Shown piece by piece: positions 15,046-29,201 of a stretch of 64,000 bases of DNA (positions are counted from its first letter, which is position 1; each line of letters begins with the position of its first letter). The DNA lies in contig JACPBB010000001.1 of the NCBI GenBank assembly GCA_016180525.1, positions 169,180 through 233,179 on the forward strand, read 5' to 3'. The notes under the pieces were generated by a model. It was not told the DNA's origin. It did no database searches and saw only the letters and a list, made by a program, of their open reading frames with translations. The translations under genes and the position numbers were made by a program. Source of the DNA: Parcubacteria group bacterium (GTDB lineage Bacteria; Patescibacteriota; Minisyncoccia; Phycocordibacterales; UBA2135).

Positions 15046-15657
15046 CTAATTAATTACCCTCGCCTTTTTACACGCATCGGTAAATTCACGAAGGAGTGAC
15101 TCCCTCAGTATTTTTTCTGCCTCTGCTTCAAAATCTATTTCCCACAAAATAGCATGGTTAAAAATCTCATTGAGACCGCAAATAATGTCAGGAAGGTCTT
15201 TGCATAATTTTGGATCCCCTTGTTTTACGGTAGAAAATCCATGTTCCCGACTATAATATGCAAATGTCTCCAGAGAAAGATCAATCCTGAAAAAATCAAG
15301 AATCCCCACTCCATCATCATTTCTTTTCCAGCCTTCATGAAATACGGGATATTGAAGCCCTTCTCGTGGAAATACCGGAGGCTGCACAAAAATCATCTTC
15401 CCTATAATCATAACGACCCGATTTTCCTTTGCCCTCCACGTAGCAACCCGTGGATGCTCTGGGATCCAGCATAAATGCGTAAAAAATGATTCGTCTTTGG
15501 CTTTAAAAATAGAGGCTCCGTGTTCCCCTAAATCATCACGGCAACACATGAAATCTCCAACTAAAAGATGTGAAGTATCAGGCCCATATTTGGGAAGGCA
15601 TTTGTTTGTCATAAATAGTAAATCCTGTATTTCATCCCAAACAGTTTTTGAGCTCAT
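15046..15657 (-). CDS. hypothetical protein (Cys/His-rich, 203 aa)
   Basis: Single long ORF; no family recognised. Confidence 0.5.
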   Translation of the reverse strand: MSSKTVWDEIQDLLFMTNKCLPKYGPDTSHLLVGDFMCCRDDLGEHGASIFKAKDESFFTHLCWIPEHPRVATWRAKENRVVMIIGKMIFVQPPVFPREGLQYPVFHEGWKRNDDGVGILDFFRIDLSLETFAYYSREHGFSTVKQGDPKLCKDLPDIICGLNEIFNHAILWEIDFEAEAEKILRESLLREFTDACKKARVIN

Positions 15658-19028: not shown

Positions 19029-19066
19029 ACAGCGGATATTACATGTCCGCTGTTTTGTGTTATTTG
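19029..19066. terminator. Intrinsic terminator (ACAGCGG-loop-CCGCTGT + TTTTGTGTTATTTG)
   Basis: Downstream of the yqeY-like gene; it overlaps the stop of the convergent minus gene. Confidence 0.65.
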
Positions 19067-19371
19067 CTAGATTTTCGTCTGTGTCGAGAGGCTATTGAAA
19101 GTAATTTTAGAAATGCGCGCAGTTGACCAGCAATGATTTGAGCAGTTGGTTCTATGTCAACCAAATCATTTTGAATAACCGTGAAAGTATACGTTTTCTC
19201 GACCAAATCATTGGCATGAGCAATATCATCATCCCGACCCTCTACAAGGGCTTCAACAATCTCCTCTGCAAAAGCATCAAAGTCTGGGCCTAATGAACTC
19301 AAACGCCCTTCTTTTATTGATATATTAATGTCTTTTAATAAGTCAGTAATAAATTGTGCTCGTTCAGACAT
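19060..19371 (-). CDS. hypothetical protein (103 aa, acidic)
   Basis: ORF with no recognised family, transcribed divergently from 19516. Confidence 0.45.
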   Translation of the reverse strand: MSERAQFITDLLKDINISIKEGRLSSLGPDFDAFAEEIVEALVEGRDDDIAHANDLVEKTYTFTVIQNDLVDIEPTAQIIAGQLRAFLKLLSIASRHRRKSSK

Positions 19372-19880: not shown

Positions 19881-20513
19881 TTATCTATTTTTTGTTACAA
19901 ACGGAACAAATGCAAATCCGAGAAACGCTTGTTCGTCAAACGAGCCGCCTTTCTTCTTTATAAACAAGTGAATGGAACCCCCTATCGGCATGACGATTCG
20001 GCCTCCAATTTTGAGCTGTTTTTTCCATGCTTTGGGCACCTCTTCCCCCGATGCTCCCGCGATAATCCTGTCAAACGGCGCCTCCTGCGGAATGCCATTC
20101 TCCGCATTCATTTCCAAATTAACGACAATTCCTTTTTTAATGAAATTGTATTTCCCGATATTTTCATCCCCCATTTTTTTAACTTCCGAAATTCTCTCTA
20201 TGCCAAATACTTTTCCTTTGGGGCCCACAATGTGAGCAAGAAGCGCGCTCTGCCAACCGGAGCCAGATCCAACATCCATAATTTTATTCCCCTTCTCCGG
20301 CTGTAGTAGTTCAAGCATAAACGCAACGGTGTATGGCTGTGAAATTGTTTGTCCTTCGCCTGTTGGAAGTGCGGTGTCAATATACGCCTCATTTTTGTAT
20401 TCCTCCGGAACAAAATCTTTTCTGTCTATCGCCTTAAACGCCTCTATGATGTGAGGTGTTTTTAAAATATTTTGTTTTATGAGAGATTGAACAAGTTGAT
20501 CCATACTTGACAT
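19881..20513 (-). CDS. pcm: protein-L-isoaspartate O-methyltransferase
   Basis: 210 aa; SAM-binding …VLDVGSGSGWQSALLAH… and the PIMT family pattern. Confidence 0.88.
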   Translation of the reverse strand: MSSMDQLVQSLIKQNILKTPHIIEAFKAIDRKDFVPEEYKNEAYIDTALPTGEGQTISQPYTVAFMLELLQPEKGNKIMDVGSGSGWQSALLAHIVGPKGKVFGIERISEVKKMGDENIGKYNFIKKGIVVNLEMNAENGIPQEAPFDRIIAGASGEEVPKAWKKQLKIGGRIVMPIGGSIHLFIKKKGGSFDEQAFLGFAFVPFVTKNR

Positions 20514-21407: not shown

Positions 21408-22115
21408 TTAAACTTCTTCTAATGTTTGCGCTTCAGTTACTTTAAAATCCCCAATTCTTGTCCGGCGCAACTCTTTGACTGTTGCGGGCACATTAAGCCG
21501 CCTGCCAACCTCCTCGGCAATAGAGCGCACATACGCCCCGCTTCCCACATCCATCTCGACAAAAAGAATAATTTTCCCGTCTTTTTTTATTATTCCCAAA
21601 AGTTCAATCTTGAAAATATTCATTTTCTTTTTGGGCAGGATAACAGATTCACCTCGTCGCGCTTTTTTATAGAGCGGCTCGCCACTTTGTTTTATCGCAG
21701 AATATGCGGGAACCGGAAGTTCAATTTCCCCAATAAGGCCCTCAAAAACTTTTTTAATCTCTTTCTCGTCAACAAAATTGACTTCTTTTTCTTCTAATAC
21801 TCGTCCTTCCATATCCCCAGTATCCGTTCGTACTCCCAAGAGAATGTGAGCTTCATACGTTTTAGGCAGTTTCAAAAATTCTCCCATCTTTTTGGTTCCA
21901 TCCCCTATTCCTAAAATTAAAAGTCCTGTTGCGAGCGGATCAAGCGTCCCGGCATGCCCAATTTTCAATTCGCCATATCGTCTTTTGAGCTCACGGATAA
22001 CATCATATGAGGTCACGCCTTTCGGTTTATCAACAAGAAGAATTTCGGGTAATTCCTTTTTTTGTTTTTTCCTAAAAAATGTCTTTAAAAAATGCATGGT
22101 GTTATACAACATCAT
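21408..22115 (-). CDS. truB: tRNA pseudouridine55 synthase
   Basis: Catalytic motif …GHAGTLDPLATGLLILGIG…; N-terminal start ambiguous. Confidence 0.9.
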   Translation of the reverse strand: MMLYNTMHFLKTFFRKKQKKELPEILLVDKPKGVTSYDVIRELKRRYGELKIGHAGTLDPLATGLLILGIGDGTKKMGEFLKLPKTYEAHILLGVRTDTGDMEGRVLEEKEVNFVDEKEIKKVFEGLIGEIELPVPAYSAIKQSGEPLYKKARRGESVILPKKKMNIFKIELLGIIKKDGKIILFVEMDVGSGAYVRSIAEEVGRRLNVPATVKELRRTRIGDFKVTEAQTLEEV

Positions 22116-22201
22116 ACGACATTTTTCAATACCTGCAAGGTTGAGAAATCGAGGGGAAAAAGGCTACAATGGGACCAGAAGCTTTTTGAAAGGTATTACT
22201 C

Positions 22202-24244
22202 ATGGCCGACGAAAAACAGAAGCGTCTGTGCGATGAAGTTCGTATTGCGCTTCTTTCACGCATAGATTATTGCGGAGACGGATATCGCAAACGCCTCATG
22301 GAATGTGGATTTAATCTCGCAAAGCTGGAACAAGTCGCTTTCCTTGTGTTGGTGGGTGGGCTTGTCCACAATGAAGGTCTTAAGGAACGAATTCAGGAAG
22401 AGCTTGCGGAAGAGAAGGTGAAGCCAAAGAAAAAGCGACGCAGTCGCGCAGATGTCATTGACCGTGTTTTAAGTGAGGTCGCGGAAGAACTTGCAAAACA
22501 AATTCCAAGTATCACTCTACCCGGTACCGAAAAGAAAATTCGTCTGTATATCATGACCTCCCCAGCCTATGATGGAAAATATGGGGCAGCAATTGCCGAA
22601 AGACTCGCTGTTCTCCGCCCAGACGATATTCGCCACTGGGCAAAGGCAAGCGAGCATTTGCCACTTGAGCCGGCACCGCATGAAAAATTCAAAGAAATTG
22701 CCTGTCTCGTACCGAGGACAACTTCATTCCGTTCAAAATATGACTCCACTGCAGTAGACCGAGTTGTTGAAGACTATCTGAATACTGCGAAAAAGGCGTA
22801 CGCACCTGTCGTTATTGTCGGTTGCTTTAATGTAAATTTTCACAAGCCGGCAGGCGGTGAAAGCTCGATTCATATCATTGGACTTCCCGGATCAAGCCGT
22901 ATTGAAGAGAACCGCGCTTCAGAAAACCAAGTTGGTTTGACAATACTTAGAATCACTAATGACGGAAACCTGTTCGTAAAATCTCACAACTTCAATGACC
23001 TAGTGGTCAGAGAGCGTGAGTCAATCAATATTTCGCCGAAGTATAACAAGACAACACAGCGCGTGCTTGAACAGTTCAAGCACCGGACATGGTGGACGCT
23101 GGGTCTTCTTTCGGAAAAACTTGGCGTACCCCGCGACGAACTCAAGAAAACGCTTAACAGTATTGTAAAGCGACCGAGGCTCAATCCTCCGCTTAAATAT
23201 GACGAATCTTCGCAGCGATATTTTATTCCTCGTCCGTGGATCCAGAAAAATGTTACATATCCCTATCCGTGGCCGACGAAAGAATTTATTGAAGAGCGGT
23301 TTTTGTCTTTTGGCTGCTTGCACGCTCTGTGCCGACATACCGCGCACGAGTTCATGCTTGATGAAATGCCAAAACTTATGCTCAAATATAACATTCATCA
23401 CCTCATTGGTGGTGGAGACTTCATTGAAGGCCGTTCACACGGTCTTCCGGAAAATGGAGAATTGCTTTTTGGCGCCACGTATGACGCGCAAGAGAAGTTT
23501 GCCGCATGGCTTGTGGCAGAAGTCCTTCTCCGAGTCTTTAAAGAGCGTATTCAAAAATTGACGCAAACTGCGGACAAGAAACTGTTTACCGATGAAGCTG
23601 CCGTTCTTAACTTCATCAAAGCGACCCTTCCTGATTTTTGGTACATTCCTGGAAATCATGACGAATGGACTGAAAGAGTCGCGTTTGAAGCTCTGACGGT
23701 GTTCCGTTATGAACTGTTTCAACTCGTTCGTAGGGGTGTAACAGAGACGCTGAAAAACACAGGTCTTGTTGTACCGGCAATCCTTGAACAATTCATTGAA
23801 AGCACTATGGTGAAAATGAGCCCTCTGGACGCCGCTATGCATTCGTCAGGCGTTTCTCTGTCGCTGAACCATCTTCACATGGGCAGAACGCAGACAAAAA
23901 CGATTCGGAGTCAAGCGCTCTTGGGCGCAACGACTGCCGTTATCAACATTCACGCGAATTTTCACACCGCTCTTTCTATGTCTCGCTTTGACCCGAACAT
24001 TGGCCAGCGCGTCGTTCAGCAGATTGGAACACTCAAGCTTCGCTCAGGATTTGAAGACCGAAAAGGAAAAAAAGTTGACTTTGGAGTCGGATATCTCCGA
24101 GTCGGACTAGAGCAGCGTGGTAATGAAAAAGTTATCCTGATGCACGAGGTCGCGCTTTTCGGAGATCCGGCAAAATATCAGAGTATCGAAAATAGAGGTT
24201 TTATTGAATCTTTCAAAAAGAAAATTTTCGGAAAAAAAATCTAA
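22202..24244 (+). CDS. large hypothetical protein with C-terminal calcineurin-like metallophosphoesterase motifs (GD-x2-[DE]…GNHDE…H-x-N-F-H)
   Basis: 680 aa; …HHLIGGGDFIEG… about 65 aa …IPGNHDEW… then …INIHANFH…. The N-terminal ~400 aa have no recognisable family. Preceded by a TTGAGA-N18-TACAAT promoter-like sequence; followed by a strong terminator. Confidence 0.55.
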   Translation: MADEKQKRLCDEVRIALLSRIDYCGDGYRKRLMECGFNLAKLEQVAFLVLVGGLVHNEGLKERIQEELAEEKVKPKKKRRSRADVIDRVLSEVAEELAKQIPSITLPGTEKKIRLYIMTSPAYDGKYGAAIAERLAVLRPDDIRHWAKASEHLPLEPAPHEKFKEIACLVPRTTSFRSKYDSTAVDRVVEDYLNTAKKAYAPVVIVGCFNVNFHKPAGGESSIHIIGLPGSSRIEENRASENQVGLTILRITNDGNLFVKSHNFNDLVVRERESINISPKYNKTTQRVLEQFKHRTWWTLGLLSEKLGVPRDELKKTLNSIVKRPRLNPPLKYDESSQRYFIPRPWIQKNVTYPYPWPTKEFIEERFLSFGCLHALCRHTAHEFMLDEMPKLMLKYNIHHLIGGGDFIEGRSHGLPENGELLFGATYDAQEKFAAWLVAEVLLRVFKERIQKLTQTADKKLFTDEAAVLNFIKATLPDFWYIPGNHDEWTERVAFEALTVFRYELFQLVRRGVTETLKNTGLVVPAILEQFIESTMVKMSPLDAAMHSSGVSLSLNHLHMGRTQTKTIRSQALLGATTAVINIHANFHTALSMSRFDPNIGQRVVQQIGTLKLRSGFEDRKGKKVDFGVGYLRVGLEQRGNEKVILMHEVALFGDPAKYQSIENRGFIESFKKKIFGKKI

Positions 24245-24256
24245 ATAACGTATATT

Positions 24257-24288
24257 AAAGGAGTTCACCTGAACTCCTTTTTTTAATT
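24257..24288 (+). terminator. Intrinsic terminator (AAAGGAGTTCA-CC-TGAACTCCTTT + T-run)
   Basis: Perfect 11-bp stem. Confidence 0.8.
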
Positions 24289-24401
24289 CACAAATGTATT
24301 TTATATGGTGGATGTTTTAAAAAATCATTTTATCTTATCGTCAAGGTTTTTTATTTTTTTGGGATGTTATTATGAACACAGATTAAAAAAAGGGGTGTTT
24401 C

Positions 24402-25190
24402 ATGGCGACAAAATTCGCACTGCATAAAATAAAAGTAATAATGCCAGATGATACGGTGTTTACCTTCTGGTTTGACGGCAACGGAAAAATTACTGCAGGA
24501 AACGGAACATTTGATTCCCCCGTTCCAAATGCCTTCTCGCTCGTACAAGTCAAAGACTGTCCGTCGGCAACACCGACATGCACCAGCGTTTGCTATGTGC
24601 ACAACCTTGAAAAAGCGGAGGCTGAGGTGCACGGCAAATATGCCCACAACAGCGTCACCATTCGTAAGATTCTTCAGAATGCCATTTATCGGCAAGCAAC
24701 TGAATTTGAATTTGTTCATTGGATAAAGAAAAACAATATCCGAGAATTCAGATGGCACGTCTCCGGTGATGTCTTTTCAAAAGAATACGCAAAATTTGTT
24801 GTATCGGTGTGTAATTTAGCTCCGGATGTTTTATTTTGGATTTATACGCGCTCATTTAATTTTGTTGAAACACTGCAAGAAGCACCCAATTTGGTTGTAA
24901 ATCTCTCGGCAGACAGAGACAATTATAAAAAAGCACTTGAAATAAACAGAAAATACGGAGTCCGTATCTGCTATCTTTCTCTTGAAGGAGAGATTCCTAA
25001 GGATTTGCCAAAAGGGTCCGTCATTTTCCCAAACTACACGCTTCGCGGAAGAGATTTGCCCGTTCCTACAGAAGCTCCATTTTGGAAACAGCTTACGCTG
25101 AAACAAAAAAAGATGGTGTGCCCGCCGGATTTCTTCGGCCAAAGCGAAAAACTCCGCTGCGGCCCGTGCCGGAAGTGCATGGTTCATTAA
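24402..25190 (+). CDS. phage Gp37/Gp68 (DUF5131)-like Cys-cluster protein
   Basis: 262 aa; N-terminal C-x6-C-x3-C-Y (…DCPSATPTCTSVCYVHN…), then …WHVSGDVF… and …VLFWIYTRSFN…, resembling the DUF5131 layout W.NP..GC…S.GC..CYA … GDLF … W.ILTKRP. C-terminal CPPD…C-x2-C-x2-C. Assignment from memory of the family pattern. Confidence 0.45.
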   Translation: MATKFALHKIKVIMPDDTVFTFWFDGNGKITAGNGTFDSPVPNAFSLVQVKDCPSATPTCTSVCYVHNLEKAEAEVHGKYAHNSVTIRKILQNAIYRQATEFEFVHWIKKNNIREFRWHVSGDVFSKEYAKFVVSVCNLAPDVLFWIYTRSFNFVETLQEAPNLVVNLSADRDNYKKALEINRKYGVRICYLSLEGEIPKDLPKGSVIFPNYTLRGRDLPVPTEAPFWKQLTLKQKKMVCPPDFFGQSEKLRCGPCRKCMVH

Positions 25191-25214
25191 CCCCGCAATA
25201 GCGGGGTTTTTTCT
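25191..25214 (+). terminator. Intrinsic terminator (CCCCGC-AATA-GCGGGG + TTTTTT)
   Basis: Perfect 6-bp GC stem right after the stop. Confidence 0.8.
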
Positions 25215-25273
25215 TGCATTTATTTCTTATTTACCTATACTCCTAAACAGAACTTGAAATTCGGAAGCATCAG

Positions 25274-26152
25274 GTGTCTGAGACAATATCGCAAGAAAAA
25301 TTTCTTACATTAATGCGTTTGTGCTGCACAAAAGAGACAAGCGCGAGTCCCGATACGTGGACTCCTAAAAATCCCCTGTGGGGGCATTGTGCCGCTGTTT
25401 CCCTTGTCGCTCAAAACATGTTTGGAGGTACACTTCTGCGTGTCTCTCTTACAGATACCCCGTTTAAAGCTATGCGGTCACACTACTTCAATAAATTACC
25501 CGATGGAACCGTCATCGATTTTACCAAAGAACAGTTTGGGAAATTATATCCAAGTGGTTTAAAAACAAAGACACGAACCTGCGGAAGCATTCTTGAACAT
25601 GAAAGCACCAGAAACCGCTATAAAAAACTTGCTCTCCGTTTTGCCTATGAAATGACTCAAAATGTGCTCCTTTTGCACCCTTTATATGGGGCATGTTTTG
25701 AAGCCGCACTTGATTCCGGATGCCAAAAACTATGGGTTGGCTCCGTACTCGTGCATAATGGAGTTGTTGTCTCTTCGGGTAATAACCATCCTGTAGAAGA
25801 GCTCGCGCATGTCTGCAAACCAAAGTGTATTCGCTTCAATATTCAATCAAGAACTGAATCAATGATTGGTGCGTGTGGGCACGCGGAAGAATACGCCATG
25901 TGGGAGGCTATCCAAAAAGGAATCCCGCTTTCTGAGTGCGATATGTATGTCGCTATGGTCGGCACAGACGGATTGCCGCGGTTTAGAAGCGACCCTTCTG
26001 TTGGATATACTTGCCTACGATGCGCAACAGCAATGCGTTTGGCTGGTATCAAAAATGTATATATTGATATTGTTGACCATTGGGAAAAAATCAGTATTAA
26101 GGATGCACTACAAAGCGCATTGCAATATGCTCTTGGTGAAAAGAAACTATAA
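25274..26152 (+). CDS. two-domain protein: unknown N-terminal domain + C-terminal dCMP/cytidine-deaminase-like zinc-binding domain
   Basis: The C-terminal half reads …SGCQKLWVGSVLVHNGVVVSSGNN…ACGHAEEYAMWEAI…YTCLRCATAMRLAGIKNVYI…. These are the CDA-fold H-A-E and C-x2-C zinc motifs plus the dCMP-deaminase AGIK.V tail. The N-terminal ~140 aa (…NPLWGHCAAVSLVAQNMFGG…) are unassigned. Confidence 0.6.
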   Translation: MSETISQEKFLTLMRLCCTKETSASPDTWTPKNPLWGHCAAVSLVAQNMFGGTLLRVSLTDTPFKAMRSHYFNKLPDGTVIDFTKEQFGKLYPSGLKTKTRTCGSILEHESTRNRYKKLALRFAYEMTQNVLLLHPLYGACFEAALDSGCQKLWVGSVLVHNGVVVSSGNNHPVEELAHVCKPKCIRFNIQSRTESMIGACGHAEEYAMWEAIQKGIPLSECDMYVAMVGTDGLPRFRSDPSVGYTCLRCATAMRLAGIKNVYIDIVDHWEKISIKDALQSALQYALGEKKL

Positions 26153-26249
26153 GTAATATGTGTTAAAATTCCAGCGTTTGCTGGATTTTTTTGCAAAAAC
26201 ATTTTTTCCCTATATACTATTCACAGATTATTCAAACGAGGCACCAGAG

Positions 26250-27245
26250 ATGATACAGGACGATGTGTGTATTGACCACGAACGTATACAGGCTATTGCC
26301 CGAACTATTGCTTCCATTCCTGAGCATGGTGGAACATTAAATTTCCACAGCATTGAAACACCGCAAGGTGCACGAGTGCTTTCCGATATGTATCCAGACG
26401 TTGATGACGCTCATGCGATTGATTTCTTTTTCTTTGCCATTCTTCATGATCATGGATTCTGGTTTGGAGATGATGCGGGATATGTCAGCCCTCTGTATGG
26501 AACCATTCTTGGGAAAAACAAGGTAAAGGGTTCTGATTTATTGTGGAAGTCATTAAAACGATCGTTTGATAAAAACCCAACCATCGTAACCATAGAGCGC
26601 CTTTTAAAAATAACTCCGGAGGAATTTGCCGATGTGTTTTCAGATGATAACGGACCAATTCCGTTTCCCGACTGGGAGGCTCGGTATATGCTTACAAAAC
26701 AATACGCGCAGTGGTTTCTAGCCGCGCGCATAAAACCCAAAGACATGCTTTTAAAAGTACGCGCCACGCCCAAACCACTCTTGGAATTTAGAAATCTTAT
26801 GCGAGTTGTACCGGGCTATACAGATCCTTTCAATAAAAAAACACTACTCCTTGCTATGGTGCTTTCATTGCGCCCAGAAAAATTTTTATCCGTCACGGAT
26901 ACAGAGTCATGGGACCCAATTATTGATTACCACCTTATGCGTCTTGCGTTACGGATGGGAATAGTGGCTATTCCGAATTCTAACCCACTCTACAAAAGGC
27001 TGACAAAACGAAATTGGGTAAATGCGGATGAAGAATTATTTATACGACAAGAAGTATATCAGGCAATGAAGAAAGTATTGCAGTACTCACGTAAGCCGCT
27101 TGCGTTTGTAGATTATGCATTCTGGTCTGGAAGAAAATTTTGCCCAGAAATGACGGAACCGAATTGCAGAGAGTGTCCATTTCAGAGTGTGTGCGCAAAA
27201 AAAACTGAGTTATTTCAACCGATATTTAGAACGCTCAATTATTAA
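26250..27245 (+). CDS. HhH-GPD superfamily N-glycosylase-like protein with endonuclease-III-type [4Fe-4S] cluster loop and ~190-aa N-terminal extension (possible Qng1/DUF2419-like or divergent DNA glycosylase)
   Basis: Start taken at ATG 26250 (MIQDDVCIDHERIQ…); promoter-like ttgcaa…tatact lies inside the ORF-track 5' extension. HhH-like …VPGYTDPFNKKTLLLAMVL…. …IDYHLMRLALRMGIV… resembles the EndoIII VDTHIFRVCNR segment with the catalytic Asp. C-terminal C-x7-C-x2-C-x5-C (FCPEMTEPNCRECPFQSVC). Confidence 0.5.
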   Translation: MIQDDVCIDHERIQAIARTIASIPEHGGTLNFHSIETPQGARVLSDMYPDVDDAHAIDFFFFAILHDHGFWFGDDAGYVSPLYGTILGKNKVKGSDLLWKSLKRSFDKNPTIVTIERLLKITPEEFADVFSDDNGPIPFPDWEARYMLTKQYAQWFLAARIKPKDMLLKVRATPKPLLEFRNLMRVVPGYTDPFNKKTLLLAMVLSLRPEKFLSVTDTESWDPIIDYHLMRLALRMGIVAIPNSNPLYKRLTKRNWVNADEELFIRQEVYQAMKKVLQYSRKPLAFVDYAFWSGRKFCPEMTEPNCRECPFQSVCAKKTELFQPIFRTLNY

Positions 27246-27258
27246 AGCGAGATAAAAT

Positions 27259-27287
27259 AAAGCCCAACTGTTTTGGTTGGGTTTTTC
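27259..27287. terminator. Bidirectional terminator (AGCCCAAC-TGTTTTG-GTTGGG + TTTTT) between convergent genes
   Basis: Between the 27245 stop (+) and the 27300 stop (-). Confidence 0.65.
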
Positions 27288-27299
27288 TAAAAATTAAGA

Positions 27300-27671
27300 T
27301 TACTTTTCTGCCATATGCTTCATCACTAAAAAGAAGCTTTTGTCGGGTCCATTTTTTATTTCCACTTCATTCGCAACAACAACTCGCTTTCTAATGCCGA
27401 GCATTTCCGTAAGCATAAATACTCCTCCCATATCAAATTTTGAACCATAACTTTTCTCGTCATACCAAATATGCACCTCATCGGCATCTAAAATTGCCTG
27501 AAAATTTGTCCTACAGATATTCACTCCGCCCGTCGGGTCATCTTGTTCCGTATCCAGAGTCGGCCAGTGAACACGGTGTCCTTGTTTTTCAAGCTGCTTT
27601 ACGTACTTTGCAATTTTAGCGTTCGTTTTTTTACTTGCGTTCGTGACCGGACAAACAAGAAATATTTTCAT
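27300..27671 (-). CDS. nucleoside 2-deoxyribosyltransferase-like / DNPH1(Rcl)-like protein
   Basis: 123 aa; MKIFLVCPVT… Rossmann-like N-terminus typical of the family, and a …D…SYGSKFDMGGVFML… segment at the expected position. Family-level only. Confidence 0.45.
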   Translation of the reverse strand: MKIFLVCPVTNASKKTNAKIAKYVKQLEKQGHRVHWPTLDTEQDDPTGGVNICRTNFQAILDADEVHIWYDEKSYGSKFDMGGVFMLTEMLGIRKRVVVANEVEIKNGPDKSFFLVMKHMAEK

Positions 27672-28345
27672 GCGCTCATTCCTACCGAAAAGTACTTTTT
27701 CAATCGCTCCACCGTTTCAGACCAGAGTTTTCTATCAATTTTAGGGTCCATGTCGCGCCAATTAGCACGCTCGGGCCTACCAAGCGCTTCGGCAAGACGA
27801 GTACGGAAATATTGTGCCGGAACACCTTTCGGATCCCATATAATGTCAGTTTTTTGGTCAACACCGGGAGGCCTGGAGAGAAGATATCCATCTCCAATCT
27901 TTCCAACTCCTTCGGGAATTCCATTCGTTACAAAATTAAATTGCTCATATAAAGTTTCGGGAAAGTCCTGCAGCATTTTTGTAGTGAGGTCTACATGAGC
28001 GGGAACTATGTGTAAGTGCGCATGCTTCACTGTCTGTCCGACTATTCCATGTTCAAACAATATTACAGACCGTTCGCCAACAGTAGAACCATTATATGCT
28101 CCATATTCATCGTGAACCAAATCCTCTACGTACAACAACAAATGAGTTAATTTTACTTGCTCTTTTTCTGTAAGTAAATTCATACAGATTACATGACGTT
28201 TCGGGAATACAAGCACATGTCCACCGTCAGTAATCTGCCCCAGTGTCGCGATAACAAAAAATTCATTGGTTTCTGTAATAATACGCTCTTTAAATGTTTC
28301 GCGATTGCAGAACGGACAATCTTTTTCCATACATTTCTTCTCCAA
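27668..28345 (-). CDS. HIT-family nucleotide hydrolase/transferase
   Basis: Histidine triad HAHLHIVP; N-terminal CPFC; overlaps the downstream gene by 4 nt (operon). Confidence 0.75.
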   Translation of the reverse strand: MEKKCMEKDCPFCNRETFKERIITETNEFFVIATLGQITDGGHVLVFPKRHVICMNLLTEKEQVKLTHLLLYVEDLVHDEYGAYNGSTVGERSVILFEHGIVGQTVKHAHLHIVPAHVDLTTKMLQDFPETLYEQFNFVTNGIPEGVGKIGDGYLLSRPPGVDQKTDIIWDPKGVPAQYFRTRLAEALGRPERANWRDMDPKIDRKLWSETVERLKKYFSVGMSA

Positions 28346-28448
28346 TTCAATCTGTAACTAGGTTAGCATACAAAAAACACAAAAAACTTGACGGTCAAAA
28401 AAATAAATGTTAAAGTTAAACAAGTAAACAAAGAGGAGTTGCATTGTT

Positions 28449-29201
28449 GTGGATGTTTTTTTGACAGCAGTTTTAACAATCACCCTAATCCTGTTATCCT
28501 CTCCATGTCATGAATTAGGACACATATACGCAATGCGTAAGTTTAATATTCCCATTAAAAAAATTGGATGGAGTTTTGTTCGGGTTGAGCGGGAGGGGGA
28601 CATAGAAAAGCTTGATTTAAAAGACCAAATATACATCTCTGGCGCAGGGCCCTTGTCCAGTATAATCTTTGGGACGATACTTCTTACCATTGCGGGAATA
28701 CGAGTGAATCCTCTTGCAATAGGAGATTTTCAAATCAACTTGCTATTGTGGGCGCCCGTTGTAGCATTGACCATAATTATTTTCGCCCGTTGGTGTTGCC
28801 AATATATTATTCCTCTTGTGGGGCTCTTAGAAATAATTCTCTTGTCCGACTTTCTTTTTTGGCTTTTTACTCATTCGCTTAATGATATTATAGGTGAGCC
28901 AATATCAGCTTCTACTATAAGAATAACTGCACAGCAAACAGTAGAAAACGTGGGTATCGTGTTTACGGCGACGTTCATAGCCGGTTTCTGTTCTCTATTT
29001 TCGGGTGCATTGAATATGTTGCCATTTTACCCAATAGACGGTGGACGCATCGTTCGAGCATATATAAAGACATTCAGTGTTAGTATTGCCGACTGGTTCG
29101 CAATTGTAGGATACTTGCTATACATTGTAATTCGCTTGGTATTGGCAATAGGTTTTGTCGTGTTTCTTTTGTCATCAGATTTAGAAGCTTTTATGAAGTA
29201 A
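28449..29201 (+). CDS. site-2 protease family (M50) membrane metalloprotease
   Basis: HELGH zinc motif at the N-terminus and conserved …LNMLPFYPIDGGRIVRA… (the LDG motif) in a polytopic membrane protein. Confidence 0.8.
   Translation: MDVFLTAVLTITLILLSSPCHELGHIYAMRKFNIPIKKIGWSFVRVEREGDIEKLDLKDQIYISGAGPLSSIIFGTILLTIAGIRVNPLAIGDFQINLLLWAPVVALTIIIFARWCCQYIIPLVGLLEIILLSDFLFWLFTHSLNDIIGEPISASTIRITAQQTVENVGIVFTATFIAGFCSLFSGALNMLPFYPIDGGRIVRAYIKTFSVSIADWFAIVGYLLYIVIRLVLAIGFVVFLLSSDLEAFMK

What the first reader, a model, noticed from the sequence alone, without database searches (positions are those of the whole stretch)
22202..24244. 680-aa protein with unknown 400-aa N-terminal region fused to a metallophosphoesterase core
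GD-x2-E…GNHDE…HANFH motifs indicate a calcineurin-like phosphoesterase (nuclease or nucleotidase), but the canonical motif I (D-x-H) is not obvious and the N-terminal two-thirds are unassigned. It is the largest gene of the island and has its own promoter and terminator.
Basis: partly seen in the sequence, partly recalled or inferred. Interest (0 to 1): 0.5.

Follow-up and report, generated by a model that had tools for sequence, protein, structure and literature searches.

The report
Tandem phosphoesterase-fold protein of Patescibacteria
This gene encodes an uncharacterised protein found only in tiny "candidate phyla radiation" bacteria, built from a dead copy and a live copy of the metallophosphoesterase fold joined by a winged-helix module, and the live copy has an unusual cysteine-containing metal site otherwise documented in the eukaryotic RNA-debranching enzyme Dbr1.

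Summary
The "missing" motif I is Cys372-x-His374. In 173 full-length homologues, C372, H374, G405, D406, G484, N485, H486 and H557 are 173/173, and N586 and H588 are 172/173.

The family is small (164 clusters among 1.84 billion representatives) and every named member is Patescibacteria. It was not found in the phage, plasmid or viral collections searched. Pfam, NCBIfam, PHROGs, PADLOC and PDB sequence searches give no significant match.

It is not an island gene. None of 12 other genomic contexts shares this window's downstream genes; the neighbours are housekeeping genes (clpX/clpP, PCMT, yceG, IMPDH). A terminator follows the gene in all 5 genomes checked.

Most likely it is a metal-dependent phosphodiesterase acting on nucleic acid. 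The substrate is unknown.

Verdict: a new architectural and active-site variant of a known superfamily, of moderate interest.

The parts
22141..22170 (+). Promoter-like site TTGAGA-18 nt-TACAAT in the 86-bp divergent intergenic region between truB (-) and the gene
   Evidence: best-scoring site of the scanned region (10 of 12 matches), although promoter-like matches overall are at chance frequency.
22188..22193 (+). Shine-Dalgarno-like GAAAGG, 8 nt upstream of the ATG
   Evidence: Read directly from the sequence.
22202..24244 (+). CDS, 680 aa: tandem MPE-fold protein (pseudo-MPE, winged helix, active MPE)
   Evidence: AF2 model pLDDT 94.4, pTM 0.93. 164 homologous clusters, full-length architecture conserved.
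22223..23035 (+). N-terminal domain (residues 8-278): MPE fold without the canonical metal ligands (S19-R-I where D-x-H is expected, G52-G53 where G-D is expected, S120-P-A-Y-D124 near the G-N-H-D position, G207-C208 near G-H-x-H). It has its own near-invariant polar residues: R29, D124, R139, E241, N242, E271.
23048..23236 (+). Winged-helix module (residues about 283-345). The recognition helix is variable except for R311. The wing consensus is WPGL..DE.S.RY.F.
23279..24181 (+). C-terminal catalytic MPE domain (residues about 360-660), with long helical insertions between motifs II-III and III-IV
23315..23323 (+). Motif I variant C372-L-H374 (Cys in place of the canonical Asp)
   Evidence: C and H are 173/173 in the family. 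Cys-x-His is described as Dbr1-specific in PMC5113202 and PMC4176325.
23414..23431 (+). Motif II G405-D406-F-I-E-G410 (bridging Asp)
   Evidence: G405, D406 and G410 are 173/173. hhalign places this stretch on SbcD VAGDVFD and YfcE ILGDVL, though the scores are insignificant.
23651..23668 (+). Motif III G484-N485-H486-D-E-W489 (metal-binding Asn plus putative general-acid His)
   Evidence: G, N and H are 173/173; W is 167/173.
23870..23872 (+). Motif IV H557
   Evidence: 173/173.
23957..23965 (+). Motif V variant N586-F-H588 (Asn in place of the first His of G-H-x-H)
   Evidence: N and H are 172/173, with one gap.
24050..24079 (+). Family-specific invariant patch F617-E618...K623...D626, downstream of motif V
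   Evidence: F 168, E 172, K 171 and D 159 of 173. Its role is unknown.
24257..24288 (+). Intrinsic-terminator-like hairpin (10-bp stem AAAGGAGTTC/GAACTCCTTT) followed by a T-run, 13 nt after the stop codon
   Evidence: Equivalent hairpins follow the homologues in L003, L005, L006 and L011.

Best explanation
The gene is a self-contained, chromosomal housekeeping-type gene known only from Patescibacteria (the Parcubacteria group / Minisyncoccota among named members). Its product has three modules. (1) An N-terminal MPE-fold domain has lost all canonical metal ligands. It is as conserved as the catalytic domain, so it is a selected pseudo-enzyme module. I infer that it acts as an intramolecular 'pseudo-dimer' partner and/or substrate-binding platform, by analogy with the inactive MPE folds of eukaryotic polymerase B-subunits and with dimeric Mre11/SbcD. 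(2) A central winged helix probably provides non-sequence-specific nucleic-acid contact. (3) A C-terminal MPE domain is predicted to hold a binuclear metal centre. One site would be ligated by C372, H374, D406 and H588; the other by D406, N485, H557 and N586. H486 would act as general acid. The soft Cys ligand predicts a preference for Mn2+, Fe2+ or Zn2+. The most likely activity is hydrolysis of a phosphodiester in a nucleic-acid substrate (exo- or endonuclease, or end-processing). Shown: the ORF, the fold of both domains, the motif set and its absolute conservation, the taxonomic restriction among named members, the monocistronic layout, and the lack of a conserved operon partner. Inferred: the metal-ligand assignment (by homology to Dbr1 and other MPEs), catalytic competence, a nucleic-acid substrate, and the role of the N-domain.
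Confidence: 0.5

Rival explanations
1. It is a nucleotide-level phosphodiesterase or nucleotidase serving nucleotide salvage or signalling (for example 5'-nucleotidase, 2',3'-cNMP, cNMP, Ap4A or pApA hydrolase). These bacteria depend on salvage.
For: The MPE superfamily includes many such enzymes among the fold hits (5'-nucleotidases, CpdB, Rv0805, GpdQ, SapH). Neighbours in some genomes are nucleotide-metabolism genes: IMPDH directly upstream in L001 and L008, dCTP deaminase downstream in L010, and NAD synthase and adenosine deaminase nearby in L009. This window has deaminase, NDT-like and HIT genes downstream.
Against: These neighbours are not consistent across the 12 contexts and are separated from the gene by terminators. 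A 680-aa three-module protein with a winged helix and, in some members, Myb-like extensions is more elaborate than known small-molecule MPEs. The top structural neighbours are nucleases.
Confidence: 0.2
2. It is a bacterial functional analogue of the lariat-debranching enzyme Dbr1: a 2'-5' phosphodiesterase acting on branched RNA (group II intron lariats or retron-like branched RNA-DNA).
For: The invariant Cys-x-His motif I is the feature that PMC5113202 and PMC4176325 describe as distinguishing Dbr1 from virtually all other MPEs. The general-acid His (H486) is invariant. In one lineage (L003/L004) a reverse-transcriptase-like ORF (DDFVIF...FLGW) overlaps the gene start by 8 nt.
Confidence: 0.07
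3. It is primarily a winged-helix transcription regulator (as NCBI names one homologue), and the MPE domains act as ligand or metal sensors rather than as a housekeeping enzyme.
For: P0062 is annotated 'helix-turn-helix transcriptional regulator'. A winged helix is present. Some members have extra HTH-like N-terminal modules.
Against: The recognition helix is the least conserved part of the protein, whereas the catalytic residues are absolutely invariant. That pattern fits an enzyme, not a sensor. There is no conserved divergent target gene or operon in 13 contexts.
Confidence: 0.07
4. It is a phosphoprotein phosphatase linked to proteostasis (Clp protease, protein-isoaspartyl repair).
Against: Terminators separate the gene from clpX/clpP in all four cases checked, so this is synteny rather than an operon. 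The association is absent in 7 of 12 contexts and in this window. PPP-type motifs (GDxHG, GDxVDRG) are absent. PPP structures rank far below the nucleases.
Confidence: 0.05
5. It is part of a mobile or defence 'island' together with the downstream GP88, deaminase, Q_salvage-like, NDT-like and HIT genes (implied by the first reader).
For: The genes are adjacent in this window.
Against: None of 12 other contexts repeats this neighbourhood. There are no PADLOC hits and no phage, plasmid or viral relatives. GC content is unremarkable (0.44-0.47 against about 0.43 for the window). A terminator separates the gene from GP88.
Confidence: 0.03

Closest known systems
Archaeal PolD small subunit DP1 (Mre11-like 3'-5' proofreading exonuclease) and the eukaryotic polymerase B-subunits
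   Different: No detectable sequence similarity. No evidence of the OB-fold that accompanies the MPE domain in DP1 and the B-subunits. No DP2-type partner. Motif I here is Cys-x-His. This protein has two MPE folds in one chain with a winged helix between them.
Mre11 / SbcD nucleases
   Different: No Rad50/SbcC-like ATPase gene next to it in any of 13 contexts. No match to TIGR00619 (best E 0.1 in one homologue). hhalign probability to E. coli SbcD is 1.4%. One of the two 'protomers' here is ligand-less.
Dbr1 RNA lariat-debranching enzyme
   Same: It uses Cys-x-His instead of Asp-x-His to bind one catalytic metal, together with a motif III general-acid His (PMC5113202, PMC4176325).
   Different: Dbr1 is eukaryotic. 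It is not among the top structural or sequence hits. The Dbr1 lariat-recognition loop and C-terminal domain have no counterpart identified here. Motif V is N-x-H here against H-x-H in Dbr1.
YfcE / MJ0936-type small phosphodiesterases
   Different: Those are 160-190-aa single-domain enzymes with canonical ligands. The domain that resembles them here lacks the ligands. hhalign probability to E. coli YfcE is 0.2-2.5%.

Membership tests
Metallophosphoesterase (calcineurin-like) superfamily - C-terminal domain | Four-layer alpha/beta-beta/alpha MPE fold | tested here: met
Metallophosphoesterase (calcineurin-like) superfamily - C-terminal domain | Motif I: metal ligand-x-His after strand 1 (D-x-H; C-x-H in the accepted member Dbr1) | tested here: met
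   C372-L-H374, 173/173. This is the Cys variant, documented as functional in Dbr1.
Metallophosphoesterase (calcineurin-like) superfamily - C-terminal domain | Motifs II (G-D), III (G-N-H-[DE]) and IV (H) | tested here: met
   G405-D406, G484-N485-H486-D487 and H557 are all 173/173.
Metallophosphoesterase (calcineurin-like) superfamily - C-terminal domain | Motif V G-H-x-H (two metal-binding His) | tested here: inconclusive
   The sequence reads A-N586-F-H588 (172/173). The second His is kept and the first is Asn, a possible but unverified ligand.
Pfam PF00149 Metallophos (model-defined family) | HMM score at or above the gathering threshold | tested here: not met
   The window protein has no hit even at E<=10. 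11 of 30 homologues give weak hits (best E 2.1e-5).
Metallophosphoesterase superfamily - N-terminal domain, as an active enzyme | Canonical metal-ligand motifs I-V | tested here: not met
Dbr1 lariat-debranching enzymes | Invariant Cys-x-His motif I | tested here: met
   C372-x-H374 is 173/173.
Dbr1 lariat-debranching enzymes | Dbr1-specific C-terminal domain (about 90 aa) following the MPE domain, and a lariat-recognition loop (PMC4176325) | tested here: not met
Dbr1 lariat-debranching enzymes | 2'-5' phosphodiesterase activity on branched RNA | not testable with these tools
   Needs an enzyme assay.
Mre11/SbcD nuclease | Sequence membership (TIGR00619 or hhalign) and an adjacent Rad50/SbcC ATPase partner | tested here: not met
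   No NCBIfam hit for the window protein. hhalign probability 1.4% to E. coli SbcD. No SbcC/Rad50-like gene in 13 neighbourhoods.
PolD DP1 / polymerase B-subunit family | OB-fold plus MPE architecture and sequence membership | tested here: not met
   This is the top fold hit only. No sequence hit to any DP1 or B-subunit chain in PDB. The architecture here is MPE, winged helix, MPE.
YfcE/MJ0936 (COG0622) phosphodiesterases | Single-domain protein of about 160-190 aa with canonical D-x-H...G-D...G-N-H...H...G-H-x-H motifs | tested here: not met
   680 aa with three modules. hhalign probability 0.2% (C-domain) and 2.5% (N-domain) to E. coli YfcE.

The most novel reading that the evidence does not exclude
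The invariant Cys-x-His metal site marks this family as a bacterial counterpart of Dbr1: a 2'-5' phosphodiesterase that debranches group II intron lariats or other branched nucleic acids in Patescibacteria. No dedicated bacterial debranching enzyme is known to me. The dead N-terminal MPE fold and the winged helix would play the substrate-recognition role that the lariat-recognition loop and C-terminal domain play in eukaryotic Dbr1.
Probability: 0.06. Interest if true: 0.85.

Novelty: new variant of a known kind. Interest (0 to 1): 0.5.

Why it matters
Three points make it more than another hypothetical MPE. First, the Cys-for-Asp metal ligand was described in 2014-2016 as a Dbr1 hallmark replacing the Asp of 'virtually all other' MPEs. 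Here it is invariant in an unrelated bacterial family, combined with an Asn-for-His change at the other metal site. That is a natural experiment in MPE metal-site chemistry. Second, a fused 'dead plus live' MPE tandem with a winged helix between the two folds is an architecture I could not find in Pfam, NCBIfam, PDB or the literature searched. It offers a bacterial example of a selected pseudo-enzyme module. Third, the family is conserved, single-unit and housekeeping-embedded in Parcubacteria-group genomes. These genomes are about 1 Mb and lack many standard pathways, so the protein is a candidate for a lineage-specific replacement of a standard nucleic-acid-processing or nucleotide-salvage activity. 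If it turns out to be an ordinary phosphodiesterase, the finding reduces to a new family annotation.

Tried and rejected
1. Direct family assignment. Pfam, PHROGs, NCBIfam, PADLOC and PDB phmmer on the protein gave no significant hit.
2. Family profiles against PDB. The full-length profile (A2), N-domain profile (A3) and C-domain profile (A5) gave only winged-helix-type hits. No MPE chain reached E<=10.
3. Internal duplication. hhalign of the N-domain against the C-domain gave probability 0.3%. If the two MPE folds share an origin, it is no longer detectable by sequence.
4. Dbr1 kinship beyond the motif was rejected at fold and sequence level.
5. Operon or island with the downstream genes was rejected: 0 of 12 contexts share them.
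6. A Clp operon was rejected as co-transcription, because terminators intervene. It is kept only as synteny.
7. A conserved small partner ORF. An HNH-like ORF follows the gene in 3 contexts but is absent from the window.
8. Wider locus harvesting failed. Alignments A2 and A1 had no stretch conserved enough to seed a scan. The single-protein scan of GTDB genomes found only the Wolfebacteria relative. The metagenome and viral scans seeded with GNHDE/GDFIEG patterns mostly matched unrelated MPEs.
9. A Foldseek search of the AlphaFold database could not be run because the library was unavailable.
10. hhalign against E. coli SbcD and YfcE was insignificant.
11. A deep search with the C-domain profile for stand-alone relatives found only fragments of the same family.
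12. Literature searches for a prior description returned nothing relevant.

Full report
**Observation**

The ORF at 22202-24244 (+) exists as described: ATG start, 680 codons. It lies 86 bp from the divergently transcribed truB. It is preceded by the best promoter-like match of the scanned region (TTGAGA-18-TACAAT, 22141-22170) and a GAAAGG Shine-Dalgarno-like element. It is followed 13 nt after the stop by a 10-bp hairpin and T-run. There is indeed no D-x-H.

**Source organism**

The window is a Patescibacteria (CPR) genome fragment. The closest homologue (69% identity) is from Candidatus Wolfebacteria. Other named homologues come from Kaiserbacteria, Spechtbacterales and 'Patescibacteria group' bacteria. 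The surrounding genes are typical housekeeping genes: RNase R, L21, RmuC, PCMT, MPG glycosylase, TruB and an M50 protease.

**The family**

The protein has no significant hit in Pfam, PHROGs, NCBIfam, PADLOC or PDB sequences.

An exhaustive phmmer search of 1.84 billion cluster representatives finds only 164 relatives. Nearly all have the same full-length architecture of about 650-720 aa. The word-indexed search gives 80 relatives, one carrying a precomputed PF00149 hit and one named 'helix-turn-helix transcriptional regulator'.

There are no relatives in the phage, plasmid or viral-contig collections. A C-domain profile search found no stand-alone or annotated distant relatives.

**Catalytic domain**

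In a 173-sequence alignment reaching down to about 24% identity, these residues are invariant or missing only through one gap: C372, H374, G405, D406, G410, G484, N485, H486, H557, N586 and H588.

They map onto the five MPE motifs. Cys replaces the motif I Asp, and Asn replaces the first His of motif V.

Using the ligand assignment given for Dbr1 and Rv0805 in PMC5113202, one metal would be held by C372, H374, D406 and H588. The other would be held by D406, N485, H557 and N586, with H486 as general acid. This assignment is an inference by homology.

11 of 30 members give weak Pfam Metallophos hits (best E 2.1e-5). Absolute conservation of every catalytic position argues strongly for an active enzyme. 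A further invariant patch (F617, E618, K623, D626) and H413 and W489 are family-specific and of unknown role.

**Structure**

AlphaFold2 with a 76-sequence alignment gives pLDDT 94.4 and pTM 0.93.

The N-domain lacks the ligands:
- S19-R-I sits where D-x-H is expected.
- G52-G53 sits where G-D is expected.
- No G-N-H or G-H-x-H is present.

An insignificant hhalign alignment to YfcE does put G53 on the bridging Asp.

The N-domain is nevertheless as conserved as the catalytic domain (0.46 against 0.48 mean column conservation). It has its own near-invariant polar residues: R29, D124, R139, E241, N242 and E271. It is therefore a selected pseudo-enzyme module.

No sequence relationship between the two halves is detectable (hhalign probability 0.3%).

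The middle segment (about 283-345) is a winged helix: profile hits to PscE, MarR and Z-alpha chains, and weak HTH Pfam hits in members. Its recognition helix is variable apart from R311.

**Genomic context**

I examined twelve contexts from other genomes.
- None contains the window's downstream genes: GP88/PF17338, the YunG-dCMP-deaminase fusion, a weak Q_salvage-like gene, a weak NDT-like gene, or HIT.
- A ClpX-like AAA+ gene or clpP lies within two genes downstream in 5 of 12.
- yceG lies within two genes downstream in 4 of 12.
- PCMT is a neighbour in 2 of 12.
- IMPDH lies directly upstream in 2 of 12.
- alaS lies a few genes upstream in 3 of 12.

In the four Clp-adjacent cases checked, a strong terminator-like hairpin follows the stop codon, as in the window. 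The gene is therefore an independent transcription unit, and the recurrences reflect retained synteny rather than operons.

GC content is unremarkable. The 'island' idea is not supported.

**Clues to the substrate**

Evidence for nucleic acid:
- The nuclease-dominated fold neighbours.
- The winged helix.
- About 17 family members have 100-250-aa N-terminal extensions with weak Myb/SANT-like matches. The P0095 extension scores E 3.9e-5 (24.1 bits against a 24.4 cut-off). The P0090 extension hits three Myb families at E 0.01-0.03.

Evidence for a small-molecule nucleotide substrate:
- Occasional nucleotide-metabolism neighbours.

Evidence for a Dbr1-like 2'-5' activity:
- The Cys-x-His motif. 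[quoted passage not shown]
- One lineage has an overlapping reverse-transcriptase-like upstream ORF.

Evidence against a Dbr1-like activity:
- Dbr1 is not among the top structural or sequence hits.
- There is no Dbr1-type C-terminal domain.
- Motif V differs.
- Rfam finds no group II intron in the window.

**Verdict**

The N-terminal region is resolved as a dead MPE fold plus a winged helix. The island interpretation is rejected.

The best explanation is a Patescibacteria-specific, constitutively organised metal-dependent phosphodiesterase, most likely acting on nucleic acid. The active domain is permanently paired with a pseudo-MPE partner. Confidence is about 0.5 overall: about 0.9 for the architecture and catalytic competence, and about 0.45 for a polymeric nucleic-acid substrate.

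It is a new architectural and active-site variant within a well-known superfamily. Interest is moderate (0.5), with a low-probability, high-interest reading as a bacterial debranching-type enzyme.

Noticed in passing
window 24402-28345: Downstream of the gene lies a compact set of nucleoside- or nucleic-acid-flavoured genes. They are a GP88-family protein (PF17338, E 1.8e-33; 24402-25190 +), a YunG + dCMP/cytidine-deaminase fusion (25274-26152 +), a 361-aa protein with a weak Queuosine-salvage-like hit (E 0.0027) and a C-terminal Cys-rich motif (26160-27245 +), a 123-aa ORF with a weak nucleoside 2-deoxyribosyltransferase hit (E 0.012; 27300-27671 -), and a HIT/DcpS-like protein (27668-28345 -). 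This set is not found next to the homologues in 12 other genomes. It may be a salvage or base-modification cluster in its own right.
   Followed up: partly
L008 10093-10599; L014 4458-4994; L015 8020-8433: A small ORF (137-178 aa) between the tandem-MPE gene and yceG is mutually homologous in three genomes (30-40% identity, E 1e-5 to 1e-7). It carries an HH[IL]xP(T/R)SRGG motif that looks HNH-nuclease-like. No copy is present in the window (tblastn).
   Followed up: partly
L003 1-423 and L004 3-437: The ORF immediately upstream of the homologue P0008 is cut by the contig start and overlaps the gene start by 8 nt. It reads DDFVIFHEN...DFLGWVHFPRHRVL, which looks like the YxDD and following motifs of a reverse transcriptase. 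It is seen in one lineage only.
   Followed up: no
homologues P0079, P0090, P0095, P0099, P0106, P0111, P0126, P0129, P0130, P0136, P0138, P0154 and others (N-terminal 100-250 aa): A subclade has N-terminal extensions made of helical repeats with weak Myb/SANT-like matches. These are followed by a conserved linker peptide of the form W-[PD]-x-P-x-[VI]-x-x-[IL]-x(4)-W-x-x-P-G just before strand 1 of the pseudo-MPE domain.
   Followed up: partly
window 19881-20513 (-) compared with L001 10222-10854: The window's PCMT gene is 55% identical to the PCMT that lies directly downstream and co-oriented with the homologue in the closest relative (Wolfebacteria). In the window it lies upstream on the opposite strand, with MPG glycosylase and truB in between. 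This indicates a local inversion or rearrangement around the gene.
   Followed up: partly
window 15046-15657 (-) and 19060-19371 (-): Two further ORFs (203 aa and 103 aa) in the housekeeping stretch have no Pfam match even at E<=1.
   Followed up: no
window 21900-28500: Intrinsic-terminator-like hairpins are about twice as frequent as in shuffled sequence (14 found against 7.1 expected, sd 2.8). They sit at most gene ends here (after 24244, 25190 and 27245/27300), which suggests many short, independently terminated transcription units in this genome.
   Followed up: no
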